Shown here in pieces: positions 24,841 through 59,545 of a DNA stretch of 62,901 nucleotides. The notes beneath the pieces are model-generated. The model saw only the letters and a program-made list of their open reading frames with translations. It did no database searches and was not told the origin of the DNA. Position 1 is the stretch's first letter; each line of letters starts with the position of its first letter. A program made the translations under genes and the position numbers. The DNA is taken from contig CAZVBO010000001.1 of the NCBI GenBank assembly GCA_964625685.1, positions 1 to 62,901 on the forward strand. Reading direction: 5' to 3'. This DNA comes from an uncultured Pseudomonadales bacterium (lineage in GTDB: Bacteria > Patescibacteriota > Microgenomatia > UBA1400 > PJMF01).

Positions 24841-26799
24841 CTAACTACTTGGTGGTACATAATCGTCGATTGTGGGATTTCCTTGAAAACCAGATCGAAT
24901 GCTTTGCTGAGTAGTCAAATCTTGGCTTGCTTGGGCTTGGTTTTGAGTAGCTGGTGGGGAAGTAGGAGTGTTGTGAATGGTTGTTTCAACTTTGTGTCTT
25001 CTTTGAAGGATTTCCTCAGGATTGGTGGTAATAACTGCGTGTTCCTGTTCGCTTGAAACAACTCGTAGTGCGACATGATTTTGACCAGCAAAGAAAATAC
25101 CCTCACCGACATCAGATGCTACTAAAAGTCGTCTTTCGCCTTCGGATAAATGAAAGGTCTCCGTTAAAATATCAAGGGCTGCGGTAGATTGTTTCATTAA
25201 AAACTGAATGGACGCATTGGTGACAATGGCTTTGCCATAGTCGTTATGCAAAAAATCTTCTACATCTTGGGTAATAGTAGTAATGCCCAAGTAGTATTTA
25301 CGAGCTCGTTTGACCATAGAATGAATAAATGAAGCGGAATCCTGGTGTTTCATGAAATACCAAGCCTCATCGATTACCAGTAATCTTTTTTTGAGATCCT
25401 TTTTGATTTTGGTCCAAATAAAATCCAAGATAATATACATGGCAATGGGTCTAAGTTCTTCATCGATCTCTTTAACCGAAAAAACGGTAAATTGATTATG
25501 AATATCTATGGTAGAGTGATGATCGAAAATACCCCGGAAGGAGCCAGAAATGTATTTTTCCAGACGAACGGCTAGATCGTTTGCATCTTCGTTTTCCATT
25601 CCGATCAAGGTCTTATACAAGTCTTCCATGAGAGGTGGTTCATTTGACTGGGTAGCTGGATCGGGAGTAATGCCTTTGGCTTTATAGGTTGCCACCAGAG
25701 CTCGATCAAGCAATGCCTCTTGTTGATCACTCATTTCACCCAACATCACTTTGAGTAAACCATGAAGGTTGATAATTTTATGACCCAACTCGTTTTCGCC
25801 TTCTTCATACACGGCTGATAGGTCAAACGGATTGATGGTATATTCAGCATTAAAGGTGAAGTTGAGGTATTCTCCGCCAACTGATTTTGCCAATTCTTCG
25901 TACTCTTGTTCAGGATCTAGTACTAAAATATCAATTCCAAACATGAGCTGGCGGATGACTTCCAATTTAACGGTGTATGATTTTCCAGCACCAGATTTAG
26001 CAAAGACGACCATATTGGCATTTTCCATTTGGAATCGATCAAAAATAACCAATGAATCATTGTGTTCATTAATTCCATAGAGAATTCCGGTTTCCATTGT
26101 CAGCTCAGAAGAAGTAAATGGGAATGTAGTGGCCAATGAGGTGGTATCCATATTCCGAGTAATCAACAACTTATCTACACCCATAGGCAGAGTTGTTTTA
26201 AAACCATCGGCCATTTGGAGGGTGGTCTTTTTGGATACAATCATCAAAGCACCCAGTGTAGATTGAATGTTTTTGGTAATTTTATCGAGTTCTTCCTTAG
26301 AATTTGCTTGAATAGTGACATATAGGCCAAATTGAAAAAACTTTTCTGAGCCTTTGGCTAGTTCCTCTCTGATATAGCGAGCATCTTCAAGTTTAACTTC
26401 GGTATTAATATTACTGATTTTCCCGGAACGGACATCAGAAGTGATTTCAGCTTCCATTTCAGTAATTTTTCGCTTCAAGTTATCCAAAACCTCTTTTGAA
26501 TCAACTGGAAAAACAAACATGGAAATATTAAGTTTGTTAGGATAATTGATCAAGGGAGCGAGCCAGTTAGCGGGCACCGACCGAGGGTAGCCAGCCACAA
26601 AAAGAGTTCGAGTATAGGTGGAATTTATTTTCTGAAAGGTGAAGTCAACTTCAATGGCCTCTGGAGCAATAATGTCTTGAATAGTAACTAACCCCCGAGA
26701 GAACTCCTCGAGTTTTTGGCGGTTTTGTTCTTCAAGACTAGGCTGAGTGTTTTCATCCTTTTTTTTGCCAAATGGTAACGACAAATTTAAACTGGGCAT
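24841..26799 (-). CDS. virB4: VirB4/TraE-family type IV secretion ATPase
   Basis: About 652 aa with Walker A FAKSGAGKSYT, Walker B LLVIDEAWYF and GITTITQD. The N-terminal IAPEAIEVDF...RTLFVAGYP pattern is typical of Gram-positive VirB4 homologues. The ORF-track start at 26802 is TTG; ATG is at 26799. Confidence 0.8.
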   Translation of the reverse strand: MPSLNLSLPFGKKKDENTQPSLEEQNRQKLEEFSRGLVTIQDIIAPEAIEVDFTFQKINSTYTRTLFVAGYPRSVPANWLAPLINYPNKLNISMFVFPVDSKEVLDNLKRKITEMEAEITSDVRSGKISNINTEVKLEDARYIREELAKGSEKFFQFGLYVTIQANSKEELDKITKNIQSTLGALMIVSKKTTLQMADGFKTTLPMGVDKLLITRNMDTTSLATTFPFTSSELTMETGILYGINEHNDSLVIFDRFQMENANMVVFAKSGAGKSYTVKLEVIRQLMFGIDILVLDPEQEYEELAKSVGGEYLNFTFNAEYTINPFDLSAVYEEGENELGHKIINLHGLLKVMLGEMSDQQEALLDRALVATYKAKGITPDPATQSNEPPLMEDLYKTLIGMENEDANDLAVRLEKYISGSFRGIFDHHSTIDIHNQFTVFSVKEIDEELRPIAMYIILDFIWTKIKKDLKKRLLVIDEAWYFMKHQDSASFIHSMVKRARKYYLGITTITQDVEDFLHNDYGKAIVTNASIQFLMKQSTAALDILTETFHLSEGERRLLVASDVGEGIFFAGQNHVALRVVSSEQEHAVITTNPEEILQRRHKVETTIHNTPTSPPATQNQAQASQDLTTQQSIRSGFQGNPTIDDYVPPSS

Positions 26800-26805
26800 C
26801 AATTT

Positions 26806-26811
26806 ATTGTA
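26806..26811 (-). promoter_or_regulatory. -10 hexamer TACAAT 6 nt upstream of the ATG of the VirB4 gene (leaderless candidate)
   Basis: The minus strand reads TACAAT aaattg ATG. Confidence 0.4.
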
Positions 26812-26852
26812 CCAGCATCATGGGTTCAGGAAAATCCGAAAAACAGCGCTGC

Positions 26853-28217
26853 TTAAATTTCTGGAAGCTGTGGCATCGCATCTGTGTTTGTCGCAGCCGG
26901 TTGAGCTGGGGTGGGTGGTTGGGAGTTGGCTGGCTCAACGGGGGTGGAAGTTGATTCAGCTGAAGTTGGCTGAGTCGGTGGCACACTTGGTGTCCCCGTC
27001 GCTGCTGGAGTTTGAGCACTTCCTGGCTGAGAAAGTGGAGCTTCCGAATGAGTTCCTAATTCTTGAATGGTGCTATTAATGGCAGATTGGGCATCCTCTA
27101 CAGTAGGTGGTGTGGGAGTACTACTCACGGCAGTTTGTCCACTAGCGGGTGTCTCAGTTTGTGTTTCTGTTGACGCGGCAACAACTTCTTCTGGGGTTGG
27201 AGTTGGTTTTGTGGGAGACTGAACAGAGGTGGTTGTAGCCGGTTGAGCTGGGGTGGGTGGTTGTGAGTTGGCTGGCTCAACAGGGGTGGAAGTTGATTGA
27301 GCTGAAGTTGGCTGAGTTGTGCTTGGAGCAGGTGAAGGAGTTTTTTCATTAGAAATAGGAATGTCAGCCATAGGAGCGGTGGGCGTGCTGGGCTCTGGAA
27401 CCGGACTGATTGGTTGTGCTTGCGGCGGGGTTTGTTGCACCGGTTGTGGCACTGTTGGGGCCTGAGGTGTCTGTGCTGGTTGATTTGGGTTGGTTGAATC
27501 AGTCATAAAATTTCCTTGTACCCTCGCCTTGACTAATGGCGTGGTGTAATTTCTACTATCGGTGAGGTTCTGGCCTTCGACAGCTTCTGGATTATACGAA
27601 GTATAAAAGAGCTGAATAATTTCCTGTGTGTCTAATTGACGAGCATATAAACCAATTCGGTTGAATTGAGAAATGAGGTGATCTCGTTTTGGTTCTAGGT
27701 TATTCCTTGCTTTTTCTAAAATATAGCTTCTTTCAAAAGAGTCAACACTGGTGGTTTTAACACCAGGGATTACGCTTTGTGGAGTAACAATACCCATTTC
27801 CAGTGCAGTGGAGGGAATAACCACGTAAAACTTTTTATCAAGTACATTTCTTTCTTGAATAAGTTCTGCCACAAAATTTTTGTATTCAGAAATTTGACTT
27901 TTTTTTAGCTTCGAAGTGGTTTCTTCAATTTGGTCCTGAAGTAACTGTAAATAGTTAGTGACATCCTTGGTTTGTGACTTAATTAAAATTTGAATAGGAT
28001 ATGTCAGTGAATTAAGTAAACTAGCGTAAGCATAAATAATTCCATCTTGTTCTTCTTCAGCCAATAATCCAAAGTTAAGAGCATCCACAGTTAAAACAAC
28101 TGCAGTTGAGCCATCTTTCATGATAATGACATTATTAGTCACATCGTAAATGTCTAAAAACTGCTGTGTAGTAGAGTGAATTGAGTTTTTCGCCATAGAT
28201 TCTAGGATCAATTCCAT
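26853..28217 (-). CDS. Hypothetical T4SS-associated protein: ~230-aa globular N-terminal part plus a ~220-aa Pro/Thr/Gln/Ser-rich repetitive tail
   Basis: 454-aa ORF directly upstream of virB4. The tail contains a duplicated QPTSA(Q/E)STSTPVEPANSQPPTPAQPA unit. Confidence 0.6.
   Translation of the reverse strand: MELILESMAKNSIHSTTQQFLDIYDVTNNVIIMKDGSTAVVLTVDALNFGLLAEEEQDGIIYAYASLLNSLTYPIQILIKSQTKDVTNYLQLLQDQIEETTSKLKKSQISEYKNFVAELIQERNVLDKKFYVVIPSTALEMGIVTPQSVIPGVKTTSVDSFERSYILEKARNNLEPKRDHLISQFNRIGLYARQLDTQEIIQLFYTSYNPEAVEGQNLTDSRNYTTPLVKARVQGNFMTDSTNPNQPAQTPQAPTVPQPVQQTPPQAQPISPVPEPSTPTAPMADIPISNEKTPSPAPSTTQPTSAQSTSTPVEPANSQPPTPAQPATTTSVQSPTKPTPTPEEVVAASTETQTETPASGQTAVSSTPTPPTVEDAQSAINSTIQELGTHSEAPLSQPGSAQTPAATGTPSVPPTQPTSAESTSTPVEPANSQPPTPAQPAATNTDAMPQLPEI
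26896..26975. repeat. Intragenic 80-bp direct repeat, copy A
   Basis: 77/80 identity with 27238-27317 (gccggttgagctggggtgggtggttg...). Confidence 0.9.
27238..27317. repeat. Intragenic 80-bp direct repeat, copy B
   Basis: 77/80 identity with 26896-26975. Confidence 0.9.
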
Positions 28218-28251: not shown

Positions 28252-29376
28252 TTAGGCCTCTGCCGGAATAGCACCTCTGATCTCAATGGGGGGCACTATT
28301 TTATTTTTGATTTCCAGTTGCTGATCAGTAAAGTCGTACCCATCTTTTTCAGCTGAAACTACATAAATACCAGGATTGAGTGGAGTAGTTACAAAAAACT
28401 GACCCAATGTATTAGACTTGATCGCTCTGACGACAGCACCATTCATGTTTTTAATTTCAATAATCGCATTAGAGAGTATTTTGTTATTTGGGCCTAAAAC
28501 CATTCCCACCGGCTTATTTGGTTCATCTGGTAGCGAGGGAAAAGGAAGATCTTGATTATAAGTGGTTTGACTAGTTTGATCCTGTTGAATTTGTTGTGTG
28601 TGTTGCTGACTTTGACTGTAAACCCGGTTTTCCTCTGTAGGAGCATTAGCAACGCCAACCAGTGTTTCTTCTTGAGCTTGGGATTTGGGCATTTTAACAG
28701 CACTCATATAAGGGATTTCTACGTCCGCAGCCACTTGCGATAAATCAATTGCTTTTTGAGAAATAGTTTGATCTGGAGTCGGAGTAGAGTCAACCAAATC
28801 ATTTTTGAGTCTCTTTTTGGCTTTTAAATCACGAACTCGAACCGTTAAGTTTGGTTTTTCCACTTGTTGTTCAACATTGGTAGCTTGGTAGGACTTAACA
28901 GTGTTAAAAGTATTTAACACATAATCAACTCGTTGTTGTTCATATTGATCATAGGCATCTTCGGGTAGTGGTTGTTGAATAGAAGTCATAAACTCCTTGA
29001 TTCGTTGACGGCGGGCAGGAGATAAATCAAGTTCAGGTTCTACTGGTTTGGTGGTACTTGGTTGGTATTTAAAGACATCAGGAATTCGAGGTTCTCGTTT
29101 CCAGAAAAACTTAGTGGGGGTATAAATAACTTTAAAAAAAGTGGCTATCCAGTGATCAAGTGGTCTTTCTTCAAATGGCACAAAGGCGGCACCCGCACCA
29201 ATAGCAACAGCTATCCCAATTAATGGCCACTTTATAAAATCAAGTAAGTTGGTGGTGTAAATCAAAAAACCCGCAAAGCAGCCAGCCCCAATTTCAGCAA
29301 ATTGCTTGAGGGTCATATTGCCTACAATATGAAACTGATACCCAGTAATATCCTGGGGCAATGGGTGTTCTTGCAT
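28252..29376 (-). CDS. PrgI-family (VirB3-like) membrane protein fused to a C-terminal carboxypeptidase-regulatory-like beta-sandwich
   Basis: 374-aa ORF. The N-terminus HPLPQDITGYQFHIVGNMTLKQFAEIGAGCFAGFLIY plus two TM helices fits the PrgI pattern. The C-terminus reads IIEIKNMNGAVVRAIKSNTLGQFFVTTPLNPGIYVVSAEKDGYDF. Confidence 0.55.
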   Translation of the reverse strand: MQEHPLPQDITGYQFHIVGNMTLKQFAEIGAGCFAGFLIYTTNLLDFIKWPLIGIAVAIGAGAAFVPFEERPLDHWIATFFKVIYTPTKFFWKREPRIPDVFKYQPSTTKPVEPELDLSPARRQRIKEFMTSIQQPLPEDAYDQYEQQRVDYVLNTFNTVKSYQATNVEQQVEKPNLTVRVRDLKAKKRLKNDLVDSTPTPDQTISQKAIDLSQVAADVEIPYMSAVKMPKSQAQEETLVGVANAPTEENRVYSQSQQHTQQIQQDQTSQTTYNQDLPFPSLPDEPNKPVGMVLGPNNKILSNAIIEIKNMNGAVVRAIKSNTLGQFFVTTPLNPGIYVVSAEKDGYDFTDQQLEIKNKIVPPIEIRGAIPAEA

Positions 29377-29421: not shown

Positions 29422-30405
29422 TTAGTTGGGAGTGGATATTGTTTCCACAGCTGGAGTAATAAGTTCCACCATATATTTATTATTGTCAGAATTATAGAGA
29501 GTTCCGGAGAAACGATAGTAGGGAAGAATATACCCAGTGGTTTCATCTACTCGATATTCAAGTGAAACAGTTGTTAAATCTCCACGAACAATTTCATCTA
29601 GAGTTATGTCGATTGTTGTTTCAACCCCTGCACTAATAATGGTTCCTTGATTTTTGGTATTAATATTCTCAATAGCCTGATCAATGCCAATCAGATTTTT
29701 TTCACCAAGGGTTTCAAATGTAACAATATTGGGAGTAAAAGAGACAGTAGAAACATTGCCCGACATGTCGAGGGTAACAAAAAAGGGGACTTCAGCTCTG
29801 CCTTCAAACATGACTGGAATACCTTCTACCGTCTGAGCAAAAGGAATTTTCACAGCTGTGGCATTTTCATAAGTTGTTACCTCTGGGTGTTCCTCGGGTT
29901 CGAGATAATAAGTAATTTGATCGGTTAGGGGAGAGAGTTCTAATGAAAGTAGGTCAAGCAGATAGGCTTGAGCTTGACCGATAAGATCTGTCTGACTTAG
30001 CTTGAAATCACCTGTGTCAGTGATTGGTGCTACCACTAAAAAATATGATTTGTTAAATCGGTCATAGGTGAGTGATTGCCCTTGATCATTTTGCCAGTAG
30101 TTATTGGCCAAAGTAGTTTTTTTAAGATTAAGCTTGGTAGTTATTTGTTGTTCTAATAACTGTGCATTGGTGTCTTGAATTTGTTTCATGATGGGAGCTT
30201 TTGTAGAGAAAGATGGGGAAGATCCACTGTACGAGATATTACTAAAAGTGGTAGTTCCGCCCACAATATTCTGGGTAAGTGTTTCTGATGTGGGTTCGGG
30301 AACCGTAATAGTTTGTGGGGTCATTAAGCGCAAAATGACAGAACTAATTAAGAGGACCACTAGAATGGTAATAAAAATTGTAAGCAGTTTTTTATTGGTT
30401 TTCAT
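29422..30405 (-). CDS. Hypothetical N-terminally anchored extracytoplasmic protein of the T4SS-like locus
   Basis: 327-aa ORF with a single N-terminal TM helix (LLTIFITILVVLLISSVILRL). Its start overlaps the upstream gene's end by 14 nt. Confidence 0.55.
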   Translation of the reverse strand: MKTNKKLLTIFITILVVLLISSVILRLMTPQTITVPEPTSETLTQNIVGGTTTFSNISYSGSSPSFSTKAPIMKQIQDTNAQLLEQQITTKLNLKKTTLANNYWQNDQGQSLTYDRFNKSYFLVVAPITDTGDFKLSQTDLIGQAQAYLLDLLSLELSPLTDQITYYLEPEEHPEVTTYENATAVKIPFAQTVEGIPVMFEGRAEVPFFVTLDMSGNVSTVSFTPNIVTFETLGEKNLIGIDQAIENINTKNQGTIISAGVETTIDITLDEIVRGDLTTVSLEYRVDETTGYILPYYRFSGTLYNSDNNKYMVELITPAVETISTPN

Positions 30406-34830: not shown

Positions 34831-34900
34831 TAAATTCCAAATGCCAAAATTCAAACATCAAATAAATTCCAAACTCCAAATTCCAATTTTTCTGGCTTTC
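34831..34900. repeat. A/T-rich UUCCAAA-type repeat (intergenic copy)
   Basis: TTAAATTCCAAATGCCAAAATTCAAACATCAAATAAATTCCAAACTCCAAATTCCAATTTTTCTGGCTTT. Confidence 0.6.
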
Positions 34901-46845: not shown

Positions 46846-49800
46846 TTATTGTTTAACTGGTGTAATTTGTTTAACCCAAGGATCAGTAGTGCAGTAGTTG
46901 GGTACATTGTTTTCATCAAAATTACCGGTGGCATGATCTATGGCACAGCAGTAGGCTCCCACGGCCCAGAGCCATCCTTTTTGAGCTTGTAGCTCTTTTA
47001 TATTGCCTGTAGCTGGTCGTTTTATTCGATCTGTGGTTGCATCAGCATCACCTGAAATACTATCAGCTACCTCACCTACTTGTTCACAAGTGGGAGATCC
47101 CTGTGAAATACCCCGACTGTCATAATATTGCATTGGACCCAAAACCCATCTCACTGCAACCGCTTTCATTTGGTCAGCAGATGAATTGTCTGTCAAACCA
47201 TATCCTGATAATAGGTTGGCTAATCCATAAAAAGTATCATGAATGCTACAAATTTCACTATAATCAGGATCTCGATTACTGTTCCACATATCTGGATAAT
47301 TAAAAGCATTTAATACAAAAAAGCCTTTAAAGCCGCTTGATCCATCATTTGGGCAACCGTTCCAGTAAGGGTAAACATTTCCAGCTTCTAAAAAATCTCC
47401 TTGGTCAAAGAATGCATCATCTTTGGTACAGATATTTTCGTTACCACTCGCAAAACGGCAACCTTCTCCAGCAAGAAAAATATTCATCATTGCCACAGGA
47501 ACATGATGCTCACTAGCTGCTTGAACAAGTAGGCTTCTAAGTTTTTCTGAAGTAATAGGATATCCTCCTGTAAAAGAACAATTTGCCCCCAAGGCACACG
47601 CTGGATTAACATGCTCATCCTGATTCTTTTGGCTAAATTGACCGCCCTTCAGATACAGTTCGGTAGGATTGCTTTGAACATTAATTTCGCTAATCCATTC
47701 GTTAATGCGACTGCCGGCTTTTTGGAGTGATTGCTGAATATCTCGAGTGATACGACCCAGCCAAGCTCCCGGGACCCTTGGTTCATGATCTTCTTCATTA
47801 TCTGCTTTGACTTCTGCAGAGATTAAACAGCCAGTTGGATTATCTGTTCCTGATTTGGTCAGACATTCATTTGTCAGCGGAACAGCATAAGCCACATTTG
47901 TATACGTAGTTCCCCCAGAGAATTCATTCATAACGTCGCTAAGTTTAAAGTATTGCGGATGAGTATCTTTAAAAGAAGCTGCCTGATCTTGCCCGTGGAT
48001 AAGTCCAATTAAGGTATCTTCAACATCAGCTAAGTCAGTTCCATAAGGATAGACTAAGTAACTCACAACTGAAGTAACATCACTGGTCCGATTATCGGTA
48101 TTACCGGGTCGAATTCGAGTGAGAAAATCAAAGGTAGCTTCCTGGGCGATGTTTTGTCGCTCGGCTAAATTAGAGACCAAATCCCCTTGATCGTCAGCGA
48201 AAGTTCGTCCCTCAGAACTGGAAATACTGGCATCATCTTTAATGTCTTCCACGGCTTCTGTTTTGAGATCCGCTGGGTTGCTTTGGCAGGATTGACCAAA
48301 ATCATTGATCATGCTGACTAAGGCTTGAACTGCTGGTTCACCGCAATCACTCCCCGAGCATTCAATTGGTTTAAGCAAAGCGGAAGTATTTTCATTTCCG
48401 ACAGGAGAGGCTTTGCCTTCATCAATTCGTTGCTGAAGCTGAGAATTTCGTTCATCTTGTTTTTGTTGGGTTTGAAGGACGTTTCTGGTAAGTTGTAAGG
48501 CATCTTGGTAATAAAATTCACTATCTGGCTTTTTATTTGACACAAAATCAGGCAGTTTAAAGGCTACCACTCGAACTTCATGTTTGGGTGTAGCACTGGT
48601 TTTCCCCTTGAGTAAAAAGTCAAAAAAACCACTGGGACTAGTGTCTTTCATTTCAGTAGTAACAACTAGGAAAGCCAGCCGATACGCTTTATCTAAATAG
48701 AGGGGGACATTACTGATAGCTTTCTTAAGTGACGAGCTTATATTTTCATCTGGTGTTGCCCCATAGAGTCTTTCGCAGGTAATTCCTTGACTTTTCACCG
48801 CTTCGTAGAGAGATTTGGTGGTATATTGACCGGAAAATCCAGGAATGTCTTGATAAAGAGCACATTTGGTGGGATCGGTGAGTTTACTACACATCTTATC
48901 TATAACCTGAAGGATGTTAAGTTGAGCATCACATTGTTGTTGTTGAGTCAGCAAAGCATAAATAGGAGCCGATTTAATGAGTTGTTCATCAGGTTCTAGG
49001 GTATCATCGGTATTTTTGTAGCCCCAATATGTTTCGAGTGAACCAAATAAGGAGTCTTTATTTGCCCCATTTCGCCAGATGGGAGATTTAGCATTTGAAA
49101 AATCAATACTTTCTTGTAAATCATTGAGAGTCATCACTATTCCTGGTTGGACATCTCGAGCGATATAATCCGGCCCGACTGAAATAATAGCCGACCGTTT
49201 GGGAGTGGCACAACTTACTTCATAGCCCTGATCGAGCAGCTCATTTTTGATTTGTTGAGCAGAACCATCAATAATGCCAGGAATAGGGTAAATATAATAA
49301 TCGTCTGGATGAGTTTCCTCGGTAGCAGTATCCATTGAACCAGCTTCCCCGATATAAAAAGGTTTTCCCAGAGCTTGAGCTTTTTGAAGAGATTGTAAAG
49401 CGATAGCCTTTTCACTACTGGTATAGTAATGAGCAGAGGTGACAGTAATATTGCTGGCTTGATTGGAAACGGTAAAATTATCACTCCCGGTTGGGCTATC
49501 ACAAGCACTGTCTGGATTGTTAGCCATTTGACCAATGCCAATATTGCCTAAATACGTAGATCGCAAATTGCTACCACTAGAAACAGTTGAAACCCAATTG
49601 TTATAAGCACCGACTGCTCCGGTGTCACTGCCACAGTGGGGTTCATTGGCTAGTTCTAACGCATACACTGGTGCATAATTTGATTGGGTGGCAGCCGCAA
49701 TTGAATTGGCAAAAGGCAAGTATTCACTTTGATAACCGCTACTGTACCAAGTGGAGTCAGCCCCAGCTGGAATTCCGCCTTGACCATTGCTGTAATCGCC

Positions 49801-50319
49801 AATGGCAATAATGAGTTTTACTCCAGTTTGATTGGCGGCTGCTAGTGCAGTTTGTACCCCTTCAACTCCTCCAGCCCAGCCGAACATTCGAACGACGGTC
49901 ACTCCACAGTTTTGATTGAGCCAGCTAAGATGATCTACCATGACTTCGGAACTGCTTTCACCTAAGTCCCAAATATTTACGCCGACAAATTTTCCTTGAG
50001 GAGTATATTTGTCTGACATTTTTTTTAAAGTGGCACAAATTTCACGACCCTGACCATCGGGATCATTACGGAAGAAAGAGTTGGGATCAGTTTTAAAGAT
50101 TGAACCAGTTCCCGGAAAATAGCCAGAGTATTGCCAGACCAAGTACCCCGTAGCACCTCCACCTAAAAACTCGTCGATGTCAGACTCTAGTTGAGTAGCG
50201 GAAATGGGTTGATAGACTGATTGAGCGAAGAGAGGTTGAGCAGCTATTTTCAAAAAAAGACTACCTACAAAAAAGGCAGAAAGAAGAAACGTGGCAAACA
50301 ACCAAAATGCTTTTCTCAC
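46846..50319 (-). CDS. Giant secreted protein with an N-terminal GH5-like (cellulase/mannanase-fold) glycoside hydrolase domain and ~800 aa of unknown function
   Basis: The ORF runs to 50430, but the GTG at 50319 follows TATAAT+6 nt and begins a signal peptide (RKAFWLFATFLLSAFFVGSLFLKIAAQPLFAQ). GH5 signatures are LELANEPHCG (acid/base NEP) and FYIGEAG (nucleophile). Confidence 0.65.
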   Translation of the reverse strand: MRKAFWLFATFLLSAFFVGSLFLKIAAQPLFAQSVYQPISATQLESDIDEFLGGGATGYLVWQYSGYFPGTGSIFKTDPNSFFRNDPDGQGREICATLKKMSDKYTPQGKFVGVNIWDLGESSSEVMVDHLSWLNQNCGVTVVRMFGWAGGVEGVQTALAAANQTGVKLIIAIGDYSNGQGGIPAGADSTWYSSGYQSEYLPFANSIAAATQSNYAPVYALELANEPHCGSDTGAVGAYNNWVSTVSSGSNLRSTYLGNIGIGQMANNPDSACDSPTGSDNFTVSNQASNITVTSAHYYTSSEKAIALQSLQKAQALGKPFYIGEAGSMDTATEETHPDDYYIYPIPGIIDGSAQQIKNELLDQGYEVSCATPKRSAIISVGPDYIARDVQPGIVMTLNDLQESIDFSNAKSPIWRNGANKDSLFGSLETYWGYKNTDDTLEPDEQLIKSAPIYALLTQQQQCDAQLNILQVIDKMCSKLTDPTKCALYQDIPGFSGQYTTKSLYEAVKSQGITCERLYGATPDENISSSLKKAISNVPLYLDKAYRLAFLVVTTEMKDTSPSGFFDFLLKGKTSATPKHEVRVVAFKLPDFVSNKKPDSEFYYQDALQLTRNVLQTQQKQDERNSQLQQRIDEGKASPVGNENTSALLKPIECSGSDCGEPAVQALVSMINDFGQSCQSNPADLKTEAVEDIKDDASISSSEGRTFADDQGDLVSNLAERQNIAQEATFDFLTRIRPGNTDNRTSDVTSVVSYLVYPYGTDLADVEDTLIGLIHGQDQAASFKDTHPQYFKLSDVMNEFSGGTTYTNVAYAVPLTNECLTKSGTDNPTGCLISAEVKADNEEDHEPRVPGAWLGRITRDIQQSLQKAGSRINEWISEINVQSNPTELYLKGGQFSQKNQDEHVNPACALGANCSFTGGYPITSEKLRSLLVQAASEHHVPVAMMNIFLAGEGCRFASGNENICTKDDAFFDQGDFLEAGNVYPYWNGCPNDGSSGFKGFFVLNAFNYPDMWNSNRDPDYSEICSIHDTFYGLANLLSGYGLTDNSSADQMKAVAVRWVLGPMQYYDSRGISQGSPTCEQVGEVADSISGDADATTDRIKRPATGNIKELQAQKGWLWAVGAYCCAIDHATGNFDENNVPNYCTTDPWVKQITPVKQ

Positions 50320-50362: not shown

Positions 50363-50824
50363 TTACTGAGGTCCGTTTTCCGTCCATTGGGTTGAGGAAT
50401 CGGGAATGGTAAAGTTAAGGAGGGTATCAATACCGGTAAATTGAGAAATAATATTTACAATAAAGTAAGCACTTAAGGCTACTACTAAACCAATAACTGC
50501 ATACGTCATGGTCTTTCGAGCCGAGTCCATCCCCTTTGAATCCCCGCCTGAGATCATCATTCTAAAGGCAGCAAAAATCATCATCACAAAACCGATGATT
50601 CCGATGAGGGTCACGAACACCATTAAAATATTTCCAATCAAGCATTGCAAACCTTGGATGGTAGCCACGTCTGAGCCTTTATAGACACACACACTTCCTT
50701 CAGATTGCCAGTTTGCTGTTTGAGCAAAGGTAGGGGCTGGAGTGATCATGCTGATGAATACAGTCAACACGAGCATCATTAGTATTTTTTTGGTTACAGA
50801 AACAATATAAGAACGCTTTTTCAT
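50363..50824 (-). CDS. T4SS pilin-like protein, paralog 1 (TrbC/VirB2-like, CPR T4SS-pilin type)
   Basis: Start taken at the ATG at 50824 (MKKRSYIV...). It has a signal peptide ending TFAQ and the core motif ISGGDSKGMDSARKTMTYAVIGLVVALSAYF between two TM helices. Confidence 0.65.
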   Translation of the reverse strand: MKKRSYIVSVTKKILMMLVLTVFISMITPAPTFAQTANWQSEGSVCVYKGSDVATIQGLQCLIGNILMVFVTLIGIIGFVMMIFAAFRMMISGGDSKGMDSARKTMTYAVIGLVVALSAYFIVNIISQFTGIDTLLNFTIPDSSTQWTENGPQ

Positions 50825-50834: not shown

Positions 50835-51344
50835 TTACTCAATAGTAGTGGTATCTCCTTCAATAGTCCGGATGTTGGTAAAAACATCATTGAGCGATTC
50901 AAAACCTAAGAAGTTGACTATGAGGTTGATTACAGCAAAAGAAGCGGCAATAATCAGCAAACCAATAATGGCTGAAATGATCTTTTGTCGAGCGCTATCT
51001 GTTTTACTTTTATCGCCGCCAGAGGTGATCCAGTTTAAGGCCCCCCAGATGAGGTAAAAGAAAACCAGTAGAGCAGCAATCACCATAATAACGCTTAGTA
51101 ACCCGTTAATTAGCCCACTAAAACTCTCAGCAAAGCCTTCTGGAACTTGAATGATGTCTGTATTCGTTGAAGCAGTTGAGTCACTTGCGACCAGGGTGAC
51201 AGTATCGACATCTTTAGAGAGGTAAATAATATCGCCATCTCTCACAACATTACCTTTAGTGGTTTGAGCGGAAACAGGCAGAGTAAAGAGTAGACTAGCA
51301 GAAAGTATGGAAAGTCCAATTATTAAGTTCAGGGTTTTTTTCAT
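50835..51344 (-). CDS. T4SS pilin-like protein, paralog 2
   Basis: Signal peptide ending VSAQ. Core motif WITSGGDKSKTDSARQKIISAIIGLLIIAASF. Confidence 0.7.
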   Translation of the reverse strand: MKKTLNLIIGLSILSASLLFTLPVSAQTTKGNVVRDGDIIYLSKDVDTVTLVASDSTASTNTDIIQVPEGFAESFSGLINGLLSVIMVIAALLVFFYLIWGALNWITSGGDKSKTDSARQKIISAIIGLLIIAASFAVINLIVNFLGFESLNDVFTNIRTIEGDTTTIE

Positions 51345-51433: not shown

Positions 51434-51784
51434 TTATTTGAGTTTTGTCTCAGTGTTATTGATATCTCGGACATTTTCAAAAGCTTGATTTACACCATCA
51501 AAACCTAAGAAGTTGAACAGTAGCTGCAGAATGGCATAAGAGGCAGCTAAGATGATTAAACCGATCACTGCTGAAGTAATTTTGTTACGGGCTTTTTCGG
51601 TCTGACCTTTATCACCACCAGAGGTGATCCATTCAATTCCACCCAAGATGAGGTAGAAGAAGACCAATAAAGCAGCTAAGACCATTACAAAACTTAAGAC
51701 ACCATTAATTAAACCACCAAAGGATTCAGCAAATCCTTGCCCGGGATCAATGGTTAGGGCATAAACTTGTGGAAGTAGATTCAT
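51434..51784 (-). CDS. T4SS pilin-like protein, paralog 3 (candidate major pilin)
   Basis: ATG at 51784 with the SD GGAG 6 nt upstream (the ORF-track start at 51796 is TTG). Core motif WITSGGDKGQTEKARNKITSAVIGLIILAASY. No Cys-rich extension. Confidence 0.7.
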   Translation of the reverse strand: MNLLPQVYALTIDPGQGFAESFGGLINGVLSFVMVLAALLVFFYLILGGIEWITSGGDKGQTEKARNKITSAVIGLIILAASYAILQLLFNFLGFDGVNQAFENVRDINNTETKLK

Positions 51785-51817
51785 ATTTTTCTCCAATTTT
51801 GCTTCTTACTACCAGGT

Positions 51818-51865: not shown

Positions 51866-52375
51866 TTAATTATTTAAAACACAGCAATATCTTGATCCTG
51901 AACAATTCATTTGACCAATACTTCGGTGGGTTGCCGGACAGGTTGTCATACAAGCTCCATTATTGGCTGCACAGGAGGTAGCTGGATCAAGTTGTCTCAC
52001 TGTTCGTTCGCTTGAATTCGTAGATCCACCGGGAATGGAAATAACTTCAATACCCAGTAATGACTGCACGACCATAAAGATAGCAAAAGTAGCGGCTAAG
52101 ACAATGATTCCAATGATGGACTGAATAATTTTGTCACGGGCTTTGCCTAATTTGCCGCTATCACCTCCGGCGGTAATCCATTCAATTCCTCCCCAAATAA
52201 GGTAGAGAAGAACGAGTAAAGCAGCAATAACCATAACGGCACTGACGATGCCACTAATAAAGGTGCCAAATCCAGTTTCGGGATTGGTTGCATCAACCGC
52301 TCCAGTACCGGCTAAACCTTGGTCAGCAGCTTCTTGGTACAGATCTATGGTAGTTTGAGCTAAAAGGCTGAGCAT
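51866..52375 (-). CDS. T4SS pilin-like protein, paralog 4, with a C-terminal 6-Cys module
   Basis: Core motif WITAGGDSGKLGKARDKIIQSIIGIIVLAATF. C-terminus SCAANNGACMTTCPATHRSIGQMNCSGSRYCCVLNN. Confidence 0.7.
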   Translation of the reverse strand: MLSLLAQTTIDLYQEAADQGLAGTGAVDATNPETGFGTFISGIVSAVMVIAALLVLLYLIWGGIEWITAGGDSGKLGKARDKIIQSIIGIIVLAATFAIFMVVQSLLGIEVISIPGGSTNSSERTVRQLDPATSCAANNGACMTTCPATHRSIGQMNCSGSRYCCVLNN

Positions 52376-52381: not shown

Positions 52382-52906
52382 TTAAAAGCTCGGCAGTGAG
52401 ATTCTGAGTAGATCAAACTCACCACCAAAGAATACTTGCCCGATATAGGAAATAATGACGAAAGAACCCACAAGTACCACTAAACCGATAATTGATTGCG
52501 TGATTTTGTCCCTAGCTTTCCCGACTTTACTACTATCGCCTCCGGCTGTAATCCACTCAATTGCCCCCCAGAGGAACATGATAATGACAGCAAGTCCTCC
52601 AATATTGATAATGGCTTGCCAAATAACGATAAGATATCGTTGAAAGGTGCTGCCTTCCTCAGCCGCAATAGGGTCATCTCCCAAGTTTCCAATAACTGGA
52701 TTGGTTAAGCCACCCTCAGTATTACGGGTGCCACCTGCTGGTTCATTCATACATCCAGTAATACACTGCTGTCTCTGAACTGTATCGGTAATAAAACGGC
52801 ATTGATCATTACACGCTGATTGTGAGTTTTGAGCTTGAACTGGTTGAAGCCCACTAAATAAATAAAAGAAAGAAATGAGAAATGCGAATGTAAAAAGTTT
52901 TTTCAT
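52382..52906 (-). CDS. T4SS pilin-like protein, paralog 5, with an N-terminal twin-CX3C module
   Basis: Signal peptide ending VQAQ, then CNDQC-x11-CITGC. Core motif WITAGGDSSKVGKARDKITQSIIGLVVLVGSF. Confidence 0.7.
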   Translation of the reverse strand: MKKLFTFAFLISFFYLFSGLQPVQAQNSQSACNDQCRFITDTVQRQQCITGCMNEPAGGTRNTEGGLTNPVIGNLGDDPIAAEEGSTFQRYLIVIWQAIINIGGLAVIIMFLWGAIEWITAGGDSSKVGKARDKITQSIIGLVVLVGSFVIISYIGQVFFGGEFDLLRISLPSF

Positions 52907-52912
52907 AAAAAT

Positions 52913-53272
52913 TTAAGGTATTAATGCTCTCAGTGCAGCTGCAGGCATAAGTAAATTAAACCCAATAATATTTCCGACAATTCCAATAATGCTATAGGCA
53001 GCCACTACAACGACCAATCCAATGACCCCTTGAATCATTTGATTGCGGGCTTTACCAACTTTACCACTATCTCCACCAGCCGTAATCCAAGTCAAGCCTC
53101 CAATTAAGAAATAAACAATAAAGAAAATTCCGCCCAAAATAGTTAAAAAACCAATGATATTAGAAATAAAAGATTCAAGATTGGTTAGAGCCATATCTCC
53201 CGCTTCTGATCCGGCACTGTAAGCTTCAGATGGTGGAGAAAAAGTTCCAAGTGATTCTGCAAGTAATGGCAT
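52913..53272 (-). CDS. T4SS pilin-like protein, paralog 6
   Basis: Core motif WITAGGDSGKVGKARNQMIQGVIGLVVVVAAY. Confidence 0.7.
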   Translation of the reverse strand: MPLLAESLGTFSPPSEAYSAGSEAGDMALTNLESFISNIIGFLTILGGIFFIVYFLIGGLTWITAGGDSGKVGKARNQMIQGVIGLVVVVAAYSIIGIVGNIIGFNLLMPAAALRALIP

Positions 53273-53304
53273 AACAATATTATTTATCGACTAGTTTATA
53301 TTAA

Positions 53305-53952
53305 TTATGGCGTCGTAGTGCTAGTTGGTCCTGAAATATTGGGACTAAGGATATATCCAGCATCTCCAAAGAATAAAAGGCCAACTAGAGCGGTAATAGT
53401 ATAAGCAGCCACAATAATGATTAAGCCAATCACACTCATGGTAATTTTATCTTTCACTTTGCCATAAGCAGAGCTATCCCCACTAGAAGTAATAAAAATA
53501 TAACCCGCCAAAATAATATTAATCATAACCCAGAGGCCGGCTACAATTGTCGCGAGTTTAATTAAATTAGAAATAAAAGGAATGAGTCCAATTCCATTAG
53601 TTCCCTGAGCATTAAATAGAGTAACTCCAGGAGGTGTTTCTATTTGTCCAAAAATGGTGCCATTTAATCTGCCGTCTCGGCAATCATTGACACAGTTCTG
53701 TCTGTCTTGGCCAGTATAAAGAGAACAGGCATCATTACACACATCTACTGATGTTGTACTTATATTGTCATCTAAACAGGTCTGATAACAACTGTCTCGT
53801 TGGGCGGTAGTAAAATAGGGAACAGAGTAACAAGTATCATGGCATTCATCTGCAACACTTTGGGCTTGAATTTGAGATGGAGTAAGTAGCCAGCTACTCA
53901 GTATGGTGACTAAACTAAAAACGGAAAGTAAGATTTTAGTAAAACGGTTCAT
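53305..53952 (-). CDS. T4SS pilin-like protein, paralog 7, with two N-terminal twin-CX3C modules
   Basis: Signal peptide ending IQAQ, then CHDTC-x13-CYQTC and CNDAC-x10-CVNDC. Core motif ITSSGDSSAYGKVKDKITMSVIGLIIIVAAY. Confidence 0.65.
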   Translation of the reverse strand: MNRFTKILLSVFSLVTILSSWLLTPSQIQAQSVADECHDTCYSVPYFTTAQRDSCYQTCLDDNISTTSVDVCNDACSLYTGQDRQNCVNDCRDGRLNGTIFGQIETPPGVTLFNAQGTNGIGLIPFISNLIKLATIVAGLWVMINIILAGYIFITSSGDSSAYGKVKDKITMSVIGLIIIVAAYTITALVGLLFFGDAGYILSPNISGPTSTTTP

Positions 53953-53978
53953 ATGACTTGACCACTATTGTATCATTT

Positions 53979-54329
53979 TTAAAAGCCGAGTGACATGCCG
54001 GTTAAAATTTGTAAAATTTGGATTACCCAATACGCAGCAAACATAATAATGAAACCAATGATAGCTGTAGTCAGAATTGACGTTGCCTCGTCCTTGCCTT
54101 TTGTTCCTTGGGAAATAAATTTGAAACCAGCAAACATAATCATAAAAAACAAAATGATTCCGGCAAAAACAAACAAGTTACGAACTAAGGTATTCACTAA
54201 AATGGAAGGAGTGCTATAAACCTCACCCAAACTTTGGCCATTGCCTAGATCAATACAATCACCCAAATTGACATTGGGTCGGGTTGGGTCACACTGTGCA
54301 TAAGCTTGTGGAATAAAGTTTAAACTCAT
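53979..54329 (-). CDS. T4SS pilin-like protein, paralog 8 (divergent)
   Basis: Start taken at the ATG at 54329 (MSLNFIPQAYAQ...); the longer ORF to 54440 would overlap the sigma gene. Core motif ISQGTKGKDEATSILTTAIIGFIIMFAAY. Confidence 0.55.
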   Translation of the reverse strand: MSLNFIPQAYAQCDPTRPNVNLGDCIDLGNGQSLGEVYSTPSILVNTLVRNLFVFAGIILFFMIMFAGFKFISQGTKGKDEATSILTTAIIGFIIMFAAYWVIQILQILTGMSLGF

Positions 54330-59543: not shown

Positions 59544-59545
59544 CT

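What the first reader, a model, noticed from the sequence alone, without database searches (positions are those of the whole stretch)
24841..54329. A 30-kb type IV secretion/pilus-like locus with no DNA-transfer genes lies next to oriC in an apparently episymbiont-type genome
The locus combines the following parts:
- a VirB4 ATPase (24841-26799)
- a PrgI/VirB3-like protein fused to a beta-sandwich (28252-29376)
- a 1463-aa protein ending in an M23 peptidase (30392-34783)
- a VirB6-like polytopic protein (43875-45422)
- a GH5-like secreted giant (46846-50319)
- eight VirB2/TrbC-like pilin paralogs (50363-54329)
I see no relaxase, VirD4-type coupling protein, integrase, att-like repeat or plasmid replication gene. 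Core genes bracket the locus: dnaA on one side and the sigma/mevalonate operon on the other. That argues for a chromosomal, non-conjugative apparatus. It carries two different wall-degrading activities (a peptidoglycan endopeptidase and a glycanase) and at least five large proteins of unknown function. A host-contact or host-penetration machine is a plausible role. About half of its coding capacity is undescribed.
Basis: partly seen in the sequence, partly recalled or inferred. Interest (0 to 1): 0.8.

Follow-up and report, generated by a model that had tools for sequence, protein, structure and literature searches.

The report
Patescibacterial type IV secretion locus
The 30-kb region is a real chromosomal type IV secretion and pilus gene cluster next to the replication origin of an ultra-small (CPR/Patescibacteria) bacterium, but this kind of system, including its lack of DNA-transfer genes and its position beside dnaA, was already described in 2023-2025 papers.

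Summary
VirB4, PrgI/VirB3, an M23 peptidase giant, a GH5 giant and eight PF18895 pilins are all at the stated coordinates. dnaA/dnaN lie on one side and an ECF sigma factor plus mevalonate genes on the other. I found no relaxase, coupling protein, integrase or flanking repeats in the 63-kb window.

I add three assignments:
- The 454-aa ORF next to virB4 is the split-off VirB4 N-domain (TrsD-like).
- The "VirB6-like" protein is a family with at least 869 members. Its AF2 model best matches R388 TrwI/VirB6, though with weak scores.
- The bitopic 327-aa protein does not match a VirB8 fold.

Synteny with dnaA holds in 75 of 80 Pacebacteria/Microgenomates relatives, and the whole 30-kb layout recurs in 8 of the 10 extended relatives' loci examined. 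So this is a vertically inherited core system, not an ICE.

It matches the Patescibacteria T4SS described by Wang 2023 and Quiñonero-Coronel 2025: no relaxase, near dnaA, pilin arrays. It is therefore a new member of a known kind.

Three points appear to be new:
- The eight pilins are one-to-one positional orthologues across genomes.
- The wall-hydrolase giant is modular.
- An opposite-strand slot holds large proteins from at least three families with no detectable similarity to each other. These are possible effectors.

The function (host interaction, not conjugation) is inferred, not shown.

The parts
24841..26802 (-). VirB4 ATPase (C-terminal ATPase part only; likely ATG start at 26799)
   Evidence: Pfam P-loop_TraG 2.3e-24 and CagE_TrbE_VirB 6.8e-5. 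NCBIfam NF045971 CD1110-type VirB4 at 389 bits (cutoff 325), covering profile positions 173-733 of 752. Walker A at residue 268. Found in 80 of 80 related loci at a median 76% identity.
26853..28217 (-). TrsD-like protein: the split-off VirB4 N-terminal domain (aa 1-230) plus a Pro/Thr/Gln-rich disordered tail containing an 86-nt repeat
   Evidence: NCBIfam NF045975 VirB4 profile positions 98-281 at 4.2e-10. This directly precedes the part of the same profile matched by the VirB4 ORF (positions 287-882). TrsD NF041427 at 2.7e-4, below its cutoff. Separate ORF in 73 of 80 relatives. Repeat D1.
28252..29376 (-). PrgI/VirB3-like membrane protein fused to a C-terminal beta-sandwich
   Evidence: Pfam PrgI 31.4 bits (gathering score 27) at aa 6-89. 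CarboxypepD_reg E 2e-5 at aa 291-352, below the gathering score. Full-length orthologues at 39-46% identity in 68 of 80 loci.
29422..30405 (-). Bitopic membrane protein: N-terminal TM helix plus three helix/beta-sheet modules. Function unknown. It sits where a VirB8-type protein might be expected.
   Evidence: TM at aa 7-25. AF2 pLDDT 86.8, pTM 0.79. No credible PDB match (best probability 0.14); the only BFVD match is an uncharacterised phage protein. Positional homologues in 42 of 80 loci.
30392..34783 (-). 1463-aa protein: about 930 aa cytoplasmic N-region, a Gly/Ala-rich hydrophobic stretch (aa 930-1100), and an extracellular C-region ending in an M23 peptidase domain
   Evidence: Peptidase_M23 29.3 bits (gathering score 28.7) at aa 1323-1437. 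PHROG tape-measure M23 region at 3e-6. HLH (HxH) and GNHVSI..YAHM motifs are present, but the first motif is atypical. Homologues in relatives carry PF01551.
34899..36830 (-). 643-aa signal-less protein, first gene of the virB4 operon; conserved, function unknown
   Evidence: No Pfam, NCBIfam, PHROG or PDB hit. Homologues at the same position in relatives at 21-42% identity.
37224..38702 (+). 492-aa signal-less protein, divergent from the virB4 operon, with a conserved C-terminal half
   Evidence: No family hit. Homologues at the same position in L090, L086 and L087 (phmmer E 1e-210, 1e-25 and 8e-9); L094 is linked only through L086 and L090 (5e-7; direct E 0.002).
38853..40586 (+). 577-aa signal-less, coiled-coil and low-complexity protein; very fast evolving
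   Evidence: No family hit. Only 37% identical to its orthologue in L090, where VirB6-like and the giant are 85-86% identical.
40586..43813 (+). 1075-aa signal-less protein occupying the hypervariable opposite-strand slot next to the VirB6-like gene
   Evidence: No family or PDB hit. The slot is filled by a 975-1370-aa ORF in all 11 loci. Among the 10 with sequence there are at least 3 families that neither phmmer nor hhalign can link.
43875..45422 (-). VirB6-like polytopic membrane protein
   Evidence: Signal peptide plus about 7 TM segments. At least 869 homologues, all unannotated. AF2 pLDDT 78.7. Foldseek PDB ranks 1-5 are all chains of the R388 stalk (TrwJ/VirB5-TrwI/VirB6) entries, taken as TrwI/VirB6 from their lengths (probability 0.98-0.99, E 0.03-0.1, TM 0.34-0.44 normalised to the target).
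45534..46421 (+). 295-aa conserved protein on the opposite strand, between the giant and VirB6-like; weak DHH/DHHA1-like similarity
   Evidence: PDB 5o4z at E 1e-3 over aa 164-245. No DHH or GGGH motif is visible. Positional orthologues at 39-72% identity.
46846..50319 (-). 1157-aa secreted or anchored giant: GH5 head (about aa 90-370 in the 1194-aa numbering), a conserved Cys-rich middle module and a variable C-terminal module. Probable VirB1-type wall hydrolase.
   Evidence: GH5 28.4 bits (gathering score 23.5). 3ziz mannanase at 5e-5 with the NEP motif. GEAG nucleophile motif. 269 representative clusters with mix-and-match heads. Among 36 homologues lacking the GH5 head, 7 carry SLT_3, 2 carry SLT and 1 carries Glyco_hydro_cc.
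50363..50824 (-). VirB2-like pilin 8 of 8 in transcription order
   Evidence: PF18895 at 34.3 bits. Two C-terminal TM segments. Positional orthologue at 46-75% identity.
50835..51344 (-). VirB2-like pilin 7
   Evidence: PF18895 at 30.8 bits. Orthologues shown.
51434..51796 (-). VirB2-like pilin 6
   Evidence: PF18895 at 38.5 bits. Orthologues at 61-76% identity.
51866..52375 (-). VirB2-like pilin 5
   Evidence: PF18895 at 37.9 bits. Orthologues shown.
52382..52906 (-). VirB2-like pilin 4 (Cys-rich N-terminal extension)
   Evidence: PF18895 at 35.5 bits. Orthologues shown.
52913..53272 (-). VirB2-like pilin 3
   Evidence: PF18895 at 41.9 bits. Orthologues shown.
53305..53952 (-). VirB2-like pilin 2 (Cys-rich N-terminal extension)
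   Evidence: PF18895 at 33.8 bits. Orthologues shown.
53979..54329 (-). VirB2-like pilin 1 (most divergent)
   Evidence: PF18895 at 22.4 bits, below the gathering score of 26.6. Positional orthologue at 38-85% identity in every relative.
54423..54950 (+). ECF-type sigma factor, divergently transcribed from the pilin array; candidate regulator
   Evidence: Sigma70_r2 and Sigma70_r4_2. Same divergent arrangement in 8 of 10 related loci.
23090..24749 (.). dnaA gene flanked by two DnaA-box pairs (23090-23121 and 24724-24744); likely oriC region abutting virB4
   Evidence: Pfam Bac_DnaA 6.7e-66. DnaA boxes and a shared 26-nt repeat. GC-skew turn at about 21 kb.

Best explanation
This is the chromosomal, vertically inherited type IV secretion system of a Patescibacteria (CPR) bacterium of the Pacebacteria/Microgenomates group. 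It belongs to the lineage-specific T4SS clade derived from the monoderm MPF_FATA conjugation machinery.

**Shown from sequence**
- Module A is the operon 36830->24841, which reads into dnaA. It encodes a 643-aa unknown protein, a membrane-anchored M23 peptidase giant, a bitopic unknown protein, PrgI/VirB3, a TrsD-like VirB4 N-domain, and the VirB4 ATPase.
- Module B runs 54329->43875. It encodes eight distinct VirB2-like pilins, a modular wall-hydrolase giant (here with a GH5 head) and a VirB6-like channel protein. An ECF sigma factor is encoded divergently from it.
- Between the two modules sit three fast-evolving opposite-strand proteins without signal peptides.

**Inferred**
- VirB4, the TrsD-like protein, PrgI and VirB6-like form the membrane translocon.
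- The M23 and GH5 giants open the cell's own wall and/or the host envelope.
- The pilins build an extracellular pilus or conduit.
- With no relaxase or coupling protein nearby, the machine serves contact-dependent exchange with a host cell (protein export or molecule uptake) rather than conjugation. This follows the Saccharibacteria homologue, which is essential for epibiotic growth.
For: - Component identification.
- VirB4 is of the CD1110/MPF_FATA type, scoring above the NCBIfam cutoff.
- 394 relatives were found. The 80 kept are almost all environmental MAGs; the informatively named ones are Patescibacteria, Pacebacteria, Woesebacteria or Microgenomates, while many carry uninformative or evidently mislabelled titles. 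NCBI lineage is Minisyncoccota.
- The virB4-dnaA-dnaN-yidC-jag synteny holds in 60-75 of 80 loci. VirB4 median identity is 76% against DnaA 54% and DnaN 41%.
- The six-gene module A is conserved.
- The complete 30-kb layout recurs in 8 of the 10 extended relatives' loci examined.
- No mobility genes, no flanking repeats and uniform GC content.
- Literature: the same system is described, is essential in Southlakia epibionticum, and lacks a relaxase and a T4CP in its locus (PMC10633639; PMC12102498; PMC12857230).
Against: - Function is inferred entirely by homology and from a different class (Saccharimonadia). No expression, host or phenotype data exist for this lineage.
- The VirB6 assignment rests on weak Foldseek scores (E 0.03-0.1, TM 0.2-0.44).
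- No VirB8-like component was found.
- The M23 domain is barely above threshold and has an atypical first metal-binding motif.
- A coupling protein or a divergent relaxase elsewhere in the genome is not excluded, so a DNA-related role (export or uptake) remains possible.
Confidence: 0.8

Rival explanations
1. The machine handles DNA after all. It would be either a DNA-uptake system analogous to Helicobacter ComB or the archaeal Ced system (a VirB4-like ATPase plus pilins, with no relaxase), scavenging host DNA or nucleotides. Alternatively it would be a conjugation system whose relaxase and T4CP are encoded elsewhere or are too divergent to recognise.
For: - VirB4 gives secondary hits to CedB (1.3e-15) and CedD (2e-7) in NCBIfam.
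- The 2025 survey finds T4CP homologues far from virB4 in most Patescibacteria genomes.
- CPR bacteria lack nucleotide synthesis.
- I could scan only 63 kb of the genome.
Against: - The best VirB4 match is the conjugative CD1110 type, not Ced.
- In S. epibionticum the remote t4cp homologue is non-essential while the T4SS is essential. Deleting comEC abolishes competence without affecting viability.
- Relaxases are found in only 103 of 3,035 Patescibacteria genomes.
- The locus contains no Walker-A protein other than VirB4.
Confidence: 0.13
2. The locus is an integrated conjugative element (or its decaying remnant) that happened to land next to dnaA.
For: - The VirB4 type derives from conjugative elements of monoderms.
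- The large variable opposite-strand genes resemble cargo.
Against: - No integrase, relaxase, T4CP, replication gene, tRNA target or flanking direct repeats.
- GC content matches the flanks.
- The same junction with dnaA occurs in 75 of 80 distinct species-level relatives, and the same sigma-side junction occurs in 8 of 10.
- VirB4 is more conserved than DnaA. This is the opposite of decay.
Confidence: 0.03
3. The eight pilins and the hydrolases form an adhesion or wall-remodelling organelle only. In this reading the pilus is an attachment fibre and no substrate passes through the channel.
For: - In many T4SSs the conjugative pilus acts mainly as an attachment organelle.
- There is no recognisable substrate-recruiting ATPase (T4CP) in the locus.
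Against: - The VirB4, VirB3 and VirB6 translocon parts are strongly conserved.
- Patescibacteria already have dedicated type IV pili for adhesion.
- T4CP-less T4SSs such as Ptl and Brucella VirB still secrete proteins.
Confidence: 0.1

Closest known systems
T4SS of Southlakia epibionticum ML1 (Saccharibacteria), genes SEML1_0006-0019 (Wang et al. 2023, Cell; PMC10633639)
   Same: - A chromosomal T4SS at the start of the genome numbering (SEML1_0006-0019). I take this to mean next to dnaA.
- Gram-positive-type subunit composition.
- An array of divergent VirB2-like pilins inside the cluster.
- Peptidase or lysozyme-type hydrolases nearby.
- No relaxase or coupling protein in the locus.
   Different: - Different class: Microgenomates/Pacebacteria here, Saccharimonadia there.
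- Eight pilins here against six there.
- Here the cluster is split into two modules by an opposite-strand block of large fast-evolving proteins.
- The hydrolase giant carries a GH5 head.
- Essentiality is shown only for ML1.
Patescibacteria-clade T4SS as surveyed by Quiñonero-Coronel et al. 2025 (Microb Genom; PMC12102498)
   Same: - MPF_FATA-related VirB4.
- TrsD and PrgI next to virB4.
- PF18895 pilin arrays of 2-11 genes, most abundant in Microgenomatia and Saccharimonadia.
- M23-containing VirB1 substitutes.
- dnaA, dnaN and rnpA as frequent neighbours.
- Relaxase absent.
   Different: - That survey found VirB6 homologues scarce in Microgenomatia and VirB8 almost absent. Here a large unannotated polytopic family (at least 869 members) fills the VirB6 role by fold and by context.
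- The survey interprets pilin arrays as possible host-range variation. Here the eight pilins are stable one-to-one orthologues across genomes.
Monoderm conjugative T4SS, MPF_FATA class (CTn2/CD1110, ICEBs1, pCF10 Prg/Pcf)
   Same: - VirB4 scores above the NCBIfam cutoff for the CD1110 family.
- PrgI/VirB3 is present.
- A TrsD-like protein is present.
- A large membrane-anchored wall hydrolase is present, comparable to PrgK or CwlT.
- There are no outer-membrane core components.
   Different: - No relaxase, T4CP, oriT-processing genes or integrase.
- It has VirB2-like pilins, which Gram-positive systems lack.
- It is fixed in the chromosome next to oriC.
- VirB4 is split into two ORFs.
T4CP-less or non-conjugative T4SSs (Bordetella Ptl, Brucella VirB, Helicobacter ComB, archaeal Ced)
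   Same: They work without a locus-encoded coupling protein and without a relaxase. They use VirB4 plus VirB2-type pilins.
   Different: Those are diderm-type or archaeal systems with different core components. Their substrates are known (toxin, effectors, DNA). Here the substrate is unknown.

Membership tests
Type IV secretion system (superfamily) | VirB4-family ATPase with an intact nucleotide-binding site | tested here: met
   Pfam P-loop_TraG 2.3e-24 and CagE_TrbE_VirB 6.8e-5. NF045971 at 389 bits against a cutoff of 325. Walker A AKSGAGKS.
Patescibacteria-clade T4SS (MPF_FATA-derived) | VirB4 groups with MPF_FATA-type VirB4 and falls within the monophyletic Patescibacteria clade | tested here: inconclusive
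   The best curated model is the MPF_FATA CD1110 family. 394 relatives were found; the informatively named ones among the 80 kept are Patescibacteria MAGs. I built no phylogenetic tree with reference VirB4s.
Patescibacteria-clade T4SS (MPF_FATA-derived) | TrsD-like (VirB4 N-domain) protein adjacent to virB4 | tested here: met
   ORF 26853-28217 matches VirB4 profile positions 98-281 at 4.2e-10 and TrsD at 2.7e-4 (below the family cutoff). Conserved in 73 of 80 loci.
Patescibacteria-clade T4SS (MPF_FATA-derived) | PrgI/VirB3 homologue | tested here: met
   PF12666 at 31.4 bits against a gathering score of 27.
Patescibacteria-clade T4SS (MPF_FATA-derived) | Array of VirB2-like pilins (PF18895) | tested here: met
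   Eight tandem ORFs. Seven are above the gathering score and one is at 22.4 bits. Each has two TM segments.
Patescibacteria-clade T4SS (MPF_FATA-derived) | VirB6-type polytopic channel protein | tested here: met
   There is no sequence-model hit. The protein has a signal peptide plus about 7 TM segments. The five best PDB matches of its AF2 model are all chains of the R388 stalk (VirB5/VirB6) entries, taken as TrwI/VirB6 from their lengths (probability 0.98-0.99). Scores are weak (E 0.03-0.1, TM at most 0.44). I count this as met at fold and context level only.
Patescibacteria-clade T4SS (MPF_FATA-derived) | No relaxase or coupling protein near virB4; chromosomal position near dnaA/dnaN/rnpA | tested here: met
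Patescibacteria-clade T4SS (MPF_FATA-derived) | Required for epibiotic growth on a host | not testable with these tools
   Shown only for S. epibionticum ML1 by Tn-seq (PMC10633639).
Conjugative element (ICE or plasmid) T4SS | Relaxase (MOB) and type IV coupling protein | tested here: not met
   No such Pfam or NCBIfam hit in any of the 50 ORFs scanned (the non-nested ORFs of at least 110 aa). VirB4 is the only Walker-A protein in the locus. The rest of the genome was not available.
Conjugative element (ICE or plasmid) T4SS | Integrase or replication gene and flanking att-type direct repeats; patchy distribution among relatives | tested here: not met
   No integrase or replication gene. No flanking repeats. 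The junctions are conserved in relatives.
VirB8/PrgL/TcpC (NTF2-like bitopic T4SS subunit), tested for ORF 29422-30405 | N-terminal TM helix plus an NTF2-like periplasmic domain | tested here: not met
   The TM helix is present. The confident AF2 model (pLDDT 86.8) has no VirB8-like match in the PDB (best probability 0.14). The profile search against PDB sequences was negative. The whole-chain search may miss single-domain similarity.
Glycoside hydrolase family 5 | (beta/alpha)8 domain with an acid/base Glu in the NEP motif and a nucleophile Glu | tested here: met
   PF00150 at 28.4 bits against a gathering score of 23.5. Alignment to the 3ziz mannanase through 'ANEP'. 'FYIGEAG' follows downstream. 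Activity and substrate are untested.
Peptidase M23 (LytM-type) | HxxxD and HxH zinc-binding motifs | tested here: inconclusive
   PF01551 at 29.3 bits against a gathering score of 28.7. HLH is present. The first motif reads H-x6-D, which is atypical. phmmer against PDB M23 chains is not significant.

The most novel reading that the evidence does not exclude
Two features not covered in the papers I read may reflect new biology.

1. The eight VirB2-like pilins are ancient and non-redundant, and they keep their order. Orthologues are 45-85% identical across genomes, whereas paralogues are 18-60% identical. This argues for a heteromeric or staged pilus rather than an antigenic-variation or host-range array.

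2. A positionally fixed opposite-strand slot lies beside the VirB6-like gene. It holds 975-1370-aa proteins without signal peptides, from at least three families with no detectable similarity to each other. It travels with the pilin/VirB6 module even where that module is separated from virB4. These proteins could be lineage-specific translocated effectors, which would be the first candidate substrates of the patescibacterial T4SS.
Probability: 0.25. Interest if true: 0.7.

Novelty: new member of a known kind. Interest (0 to 1): 0.35.

Why it matters
The patescibacterial T4SS is one of the few machines known to be essential for the epibiotic lifestyle of CPR bacteria, and neither its substrate nor its mechanism is known. 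This locus adds nothing categorically new. It does give a well-resolved Microgenomates/Pacebacteria example with three testable leads:
- a candidate VirB6 family for a class in which VirB6 was reported as scarce;
- a fixed set of eight orthologous pilins;
- a hypervariable slot of large cytoplasmic proteins that could be the missing effectors.

Tried and rejected
- **ICE or plasmid origin: rejected.** No mobility genes, repeats or compositional shift, and the junctions are conserved.
- **VirB8-like identity of the 327-aa bitopic protein: not supported.** phmmer and a profile search against PDB sequences were negative. Foldseek of a confident model against the PDB and BFVD gave no credible or informative match.
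- **Deepening the 327-aa alignment: failed.** A profile search returned only 7 proteins.
- **Sequence searches of the unknowns against the PDB: mostly negative.** The 643-aa, 1075-aa and VirB6-like proteins, and the VirB6-like profile, gave nothing. The 295-aa protein gave only a weak DHH/DHHA1 hit, and no catalytic motifs are visible.
- **PHROGs and NCBIfam on the unknowns: nothing useful.** The only gains were the TrsD/VirB4 N-domain match and an M23 tape-measure-like hit.
- **'GH5 is specific to this lineage': revised.** This was my first impression from four relatives. The all-against-library search shows GH5-headed giants in many clusters and alternative heads in others.
- **'The opposite-strand block is non-homologous everywhere': revised.** The 492-aa family is conserved, and the 1075-aa slot falls into at least 3 families.
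- **Promoter and terminator scans: at chance level and not used.** One strong hairpin lies after the giant at 46525-46548.
- **M23 C-terminal region against the PDB: not significant**.

Full report

Yes. The window carries a 23S rRNA fragment and a tRNA-Ala at its left end, followed by ordinary core genes. The cluster rnpA, yidC, jag, dnaN (21749-22855) and dnaA (23122-24651) lies on the minus strand.

- VirB4 (24841-26802): P-loop_TraG 2.3e-24 and CagE_TrbE_VirB 6.8e-5.
- 28252-29376: PrgI above its gathering score, plus a sub-threshold CarboxypepD_reg beta-sandwich.
- 1463-aa protein: Peptidase_M23 just above threshold, at its C-terminus.
- 46846-50319: GH5.
- Eight consecutive small ORFs: PF18895 T4SS_pilin, seven above threshold.

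The right flank holds an ECF sigma factor, NUDIX, HMG-CoA reductase, an HMG-CoA synthase-like gene, thiolase and uppS.

I scanned all 50 non-nested ORFs of at least 110 aa against Pfam. None hit a relaxase, coupling protein, integrase or replication protein. VirB4 is the only Walker-A protein in the locus. No direct repeats bracket the locus, and GC content is uniform.

Two pairs of DnaA-box-like sites share a 26-nt repeat and flank dnaA at 23090-23121 and 24724-24744. GC skew turns at about 21 kb. "Next to oriC" is therefore reasonable.

**2. What more is there?**

*The split VirB4.* NCBIfam places VirB4 in the CD1110 (CTn2, MPF_FATA) family at 389 bits against a cutoff of 325, but only over profile positions 173-733. 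The neighbouring 454-aa ORF (26853-28217) matches positions 98-281 of a VirB4 profile, and the VirB4 ORF matches positions 287-882 of that same profile. The 454-aa ORF also matches TrsD weakly. VirB4 is thus split into a TrsD-like N-domain protein and the ATPase. The N-domain protein carries a long Pro/Thr/Gln-rich tail. The split is conserved in relatives, so it is not a frameshift.

*The VirB6-like protein.* It has a signal peptide and about seven hydrophobic helices. It has at least 869 homologues, all unannotated. No sequence model recognises it. An AF2 model built from 119 homologues (pLDDT 78.7) has as its five best PDB matches chains of the R388 stalk (TrwJ/VirB5-TrwI/VirB6) entries, which I take to be TrwI/VirB6 from their lengths. 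Foldseek probability is 0.98-0.99, but E is 0.03-0.1 and TM-scores are low. I accept the VirB6 assignment at fold and context level only.

*The bitopic 327-aa protein.* It gives a confident model (pLDDT 86.8) of a TM helix plus three helix/sheet modules. Nothing VirB8-like matched it in the PDB, and BFVD returned only an uncharacterised phage protein. A VirB8 equivalent remains unidentified.

*The M23 giant.* It has no signal peptide. It has about 930 residues of apparently cytoplasmic sequence, a Gly/Ala-rich hydrophobic stretch (aa 930-1100) and an outside-facing C-region with the M23 domain. The HxH motif is present, while the first metal-binding motif is atypical.

*The GH5 head.* It carries both catalytic glutamate motifs.

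**3. Relatives and synteny**

A VirB4-seeded scan of one genome per species found 394 relatives. The informatively named ones among the 80 kept are Patescibacteria, Pacebacteria, Woesebacteria or Microgenomates MAGs. NCBI places them in Minisyncoccota.

| Gene linked to virB4 | Loci (of 80) |
|---|---|
| dnaA | 75 |
| dnaN | 68 |
| yidC | 61 |
| jag | 60 |

VirB4 is much better conserved (median 76% identity) than DnaA (54%), YidC (53%) or DnaN (41%).

The upstream six-gene operon is conserved: a protein of about 640 aa, the M23 giant, the bitopic protein, the PrgI fusion, the TrsD-like protein and VirB4.

Ten further loci fetched through VirB6-like homologues show the rest of the layout. In order: ECF sigma (divergent), 6-9 pilins, the giant, an opposite-strand gene of about 300 aa, VirB6-like, 1-4 opposite-strand large ORFs, then the roughly 640-aa gene and the M23 giant. 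In two of these loci (L089, L091) the pilin/VirB6/opposite-strand module sits elsewhere, next to rpsO, infB and nusA. The system therefore consists of two separable modules, and the opposite-strand genes travel with the pilin/VirB6 module.

All of this describes a vertically inherited core system, not a mobile element.

**4. Points that appear to be new**

(a) *Pilins.* Each of the eight pilins has a positional orthologue in other genomes. Orthologue identity is 38-85%, whereas paralogue identity within the window is 18-60%. The array is old and each member is individually maintained. That fits specialised subunits better than a rapidly varying repertoire.

(b) *The giant.* It belongs to a modular family with 269 representative clusters. 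Some members share the GH5 head plus the Cys-rich middle module. Others have a different head of about 300 aa. Others carry the GH5 head in unrelated architectures. Among 36 homologues without the GH5 head, 7 carry the lysozyme-like SLT_3 domain, 2 carry SLT and 1 carries Glyco_hydro_cc. The family looks like the VirB1-type wall-opening component, with exchangeable enzymatic modules.

(c) *The opposite-strand block.*
- The 492-aa protein has recognisable homologues at the same position in three other lineages directly, and in a fourth through intermediates.
- The 577-aa protein is only 37% identical to its orthologue in the closest relative, where VirB6-like and the giant are 85-86% identical.
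- The slot next to VirB6-like always holds a 975-1370-aa signal-less protein. These fall into at least three groups that neither phmmer nor hhalign can connect.

Effectors or another arms-race component are a plausible reading. This is inference only.

**5. Comparison with what is known**

- Wang et al. 2023 (PMC10633639) showed by Tn-seq that the T4SS of Southlakia epibionticum (SEML1_0006-0019) and its pilin genes are essential for epibiotic growth. They noted the lack of a recognisable relaxase and coupling protein.
- Quiñonero-Coronel et al. 2025 (PMC12102498) surveyed 3,035 Patescibacteria genomes. They reported a monophyletic VirB4 clade nested in MPF_FATA; TrsD, PrgI and VirB6; M23-containing hydrolases; VirB2 arrays of 2-11 genes, especially in Microgenomatia and Saccharimonadia; near absence of relaxases; and frequent proximity to dnaA, dnaN and rnpA.
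- A 2025 FEMS review presents these systems as established newcomers to the T4SS superfamily.

The locus is therefore a new member of a known kind. The survey notes that VirB6 is scarce in Microgenomatia and that VirB8 is almost undetected. The VirB6-like family here helps with the first gap and not with the second.

**6. Mechanism and confidence**

*Shown:* gene content, topology predictions, conservation, synteny and the absence of mobility genes in the window.

*Inferred:*
- A translocon made of VirB4, the TrsD-like protein, PrgI and VirB6-like.
- Wall opening by the M23 and GH5 giants.
- A VirB2-type pilus or conduit.
- Possible control by the divergent ECF sigma factor.
- A role in host-cell interaction rather than conjugation.

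A DNA-uptake or DNA-export role with remote partners is the main rival, at about 0.13. An ICE origin is essentially excluded.

**7. Verdict**

Interest is moderate to low (0.35). Its residual value lies in the pilin orthology, the modular hydrolase and the hypervariable slot.

Noticed in passing
window 1-2063: The 23S rRNA fragment (1-1764, minus strand) spans only Rfam model positions 1-1399, which implies about 365 nt of extra sequence (an insertion or intron?). tRNA-Ala(TGC) lies upstream of it, but the next gene is protein-coding, so no 16S gene is directly adjacent.
   Followed up: no
window 55491-62581: The right flank is an archaeal-style mevalonate/isoprenoid operon in a CPR bacterium. 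It holds NUDIX, HMG-CoA reductase, an HMG-CoA synthase-like gene, thiolase, a DUF35-type OB-fold protein, a second NUDIX, an amino-acid-kinase-fold (IPK-like) gene and UppS.
   Followed up: no
window 24841-26802 versus 21749-24651, and loci L001-L080: VirB4 is far more conserved among 80 related species (median 76% identity) than DnaA (54%), YidC (53%) or DnaN (41%).
   Followed up: partly
window 24841-36830 and 43875-54329: If oriC lies at dnaA (DnaA boxes at 23090-23121 and 24724-24744; skew turn at about 21 kb), roughly 22 kb of minus-strand T4SS genes are transcribed head-on to the rightward replication fork. The virB4 operon also reads directly into dnaA. This orientation is conserved in relatives.
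   Followed up: partly
window 26890-26975 and 27232-27317: An 86-nt direct repeat (94% identical) lies inside the Pro/Thr/Gln-rich tail of the TrsD-like gene and encodes a duplicated low-complexity segment.
   Followed up: no
window 34845-34878, 37084-37117, 46544-46577: An A-rich 34-nt motif (CAAAATTCAAACATCAAATAAATTCCAAACTCCA and two variants at 68-74% identity) recurs in three intergenic regions of the locus. A strong hairpin (10-bp stem) overlaps the third copy at 46525-46548, just downstream of the giant.
   Followed up: no
L090 659-1338: In the closest relative, a MazE/PIN toxin-antitoxin pair is inserted between the ECF sigma gene and the pilin array. It is absent from the window.
   Followed up: no
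L089 and L091 (whole loci); L088 1-510; L092 1-123: In some relatives the pilin/VirB6/opposite-strand module lies apart from virB4, next to rpsO, infB and nusA, and lacks the giant. Other relatives carry an extra T4SS_pilin-domain ORF beyond uppS.
   Followed up: partly
window 16127-19042: A 971-aa DUF4012 protein sits in the conserved dnaA-side neighbourhood. It is present in 57 of 80 related loci, and its function is unknown.
   Followed up: no
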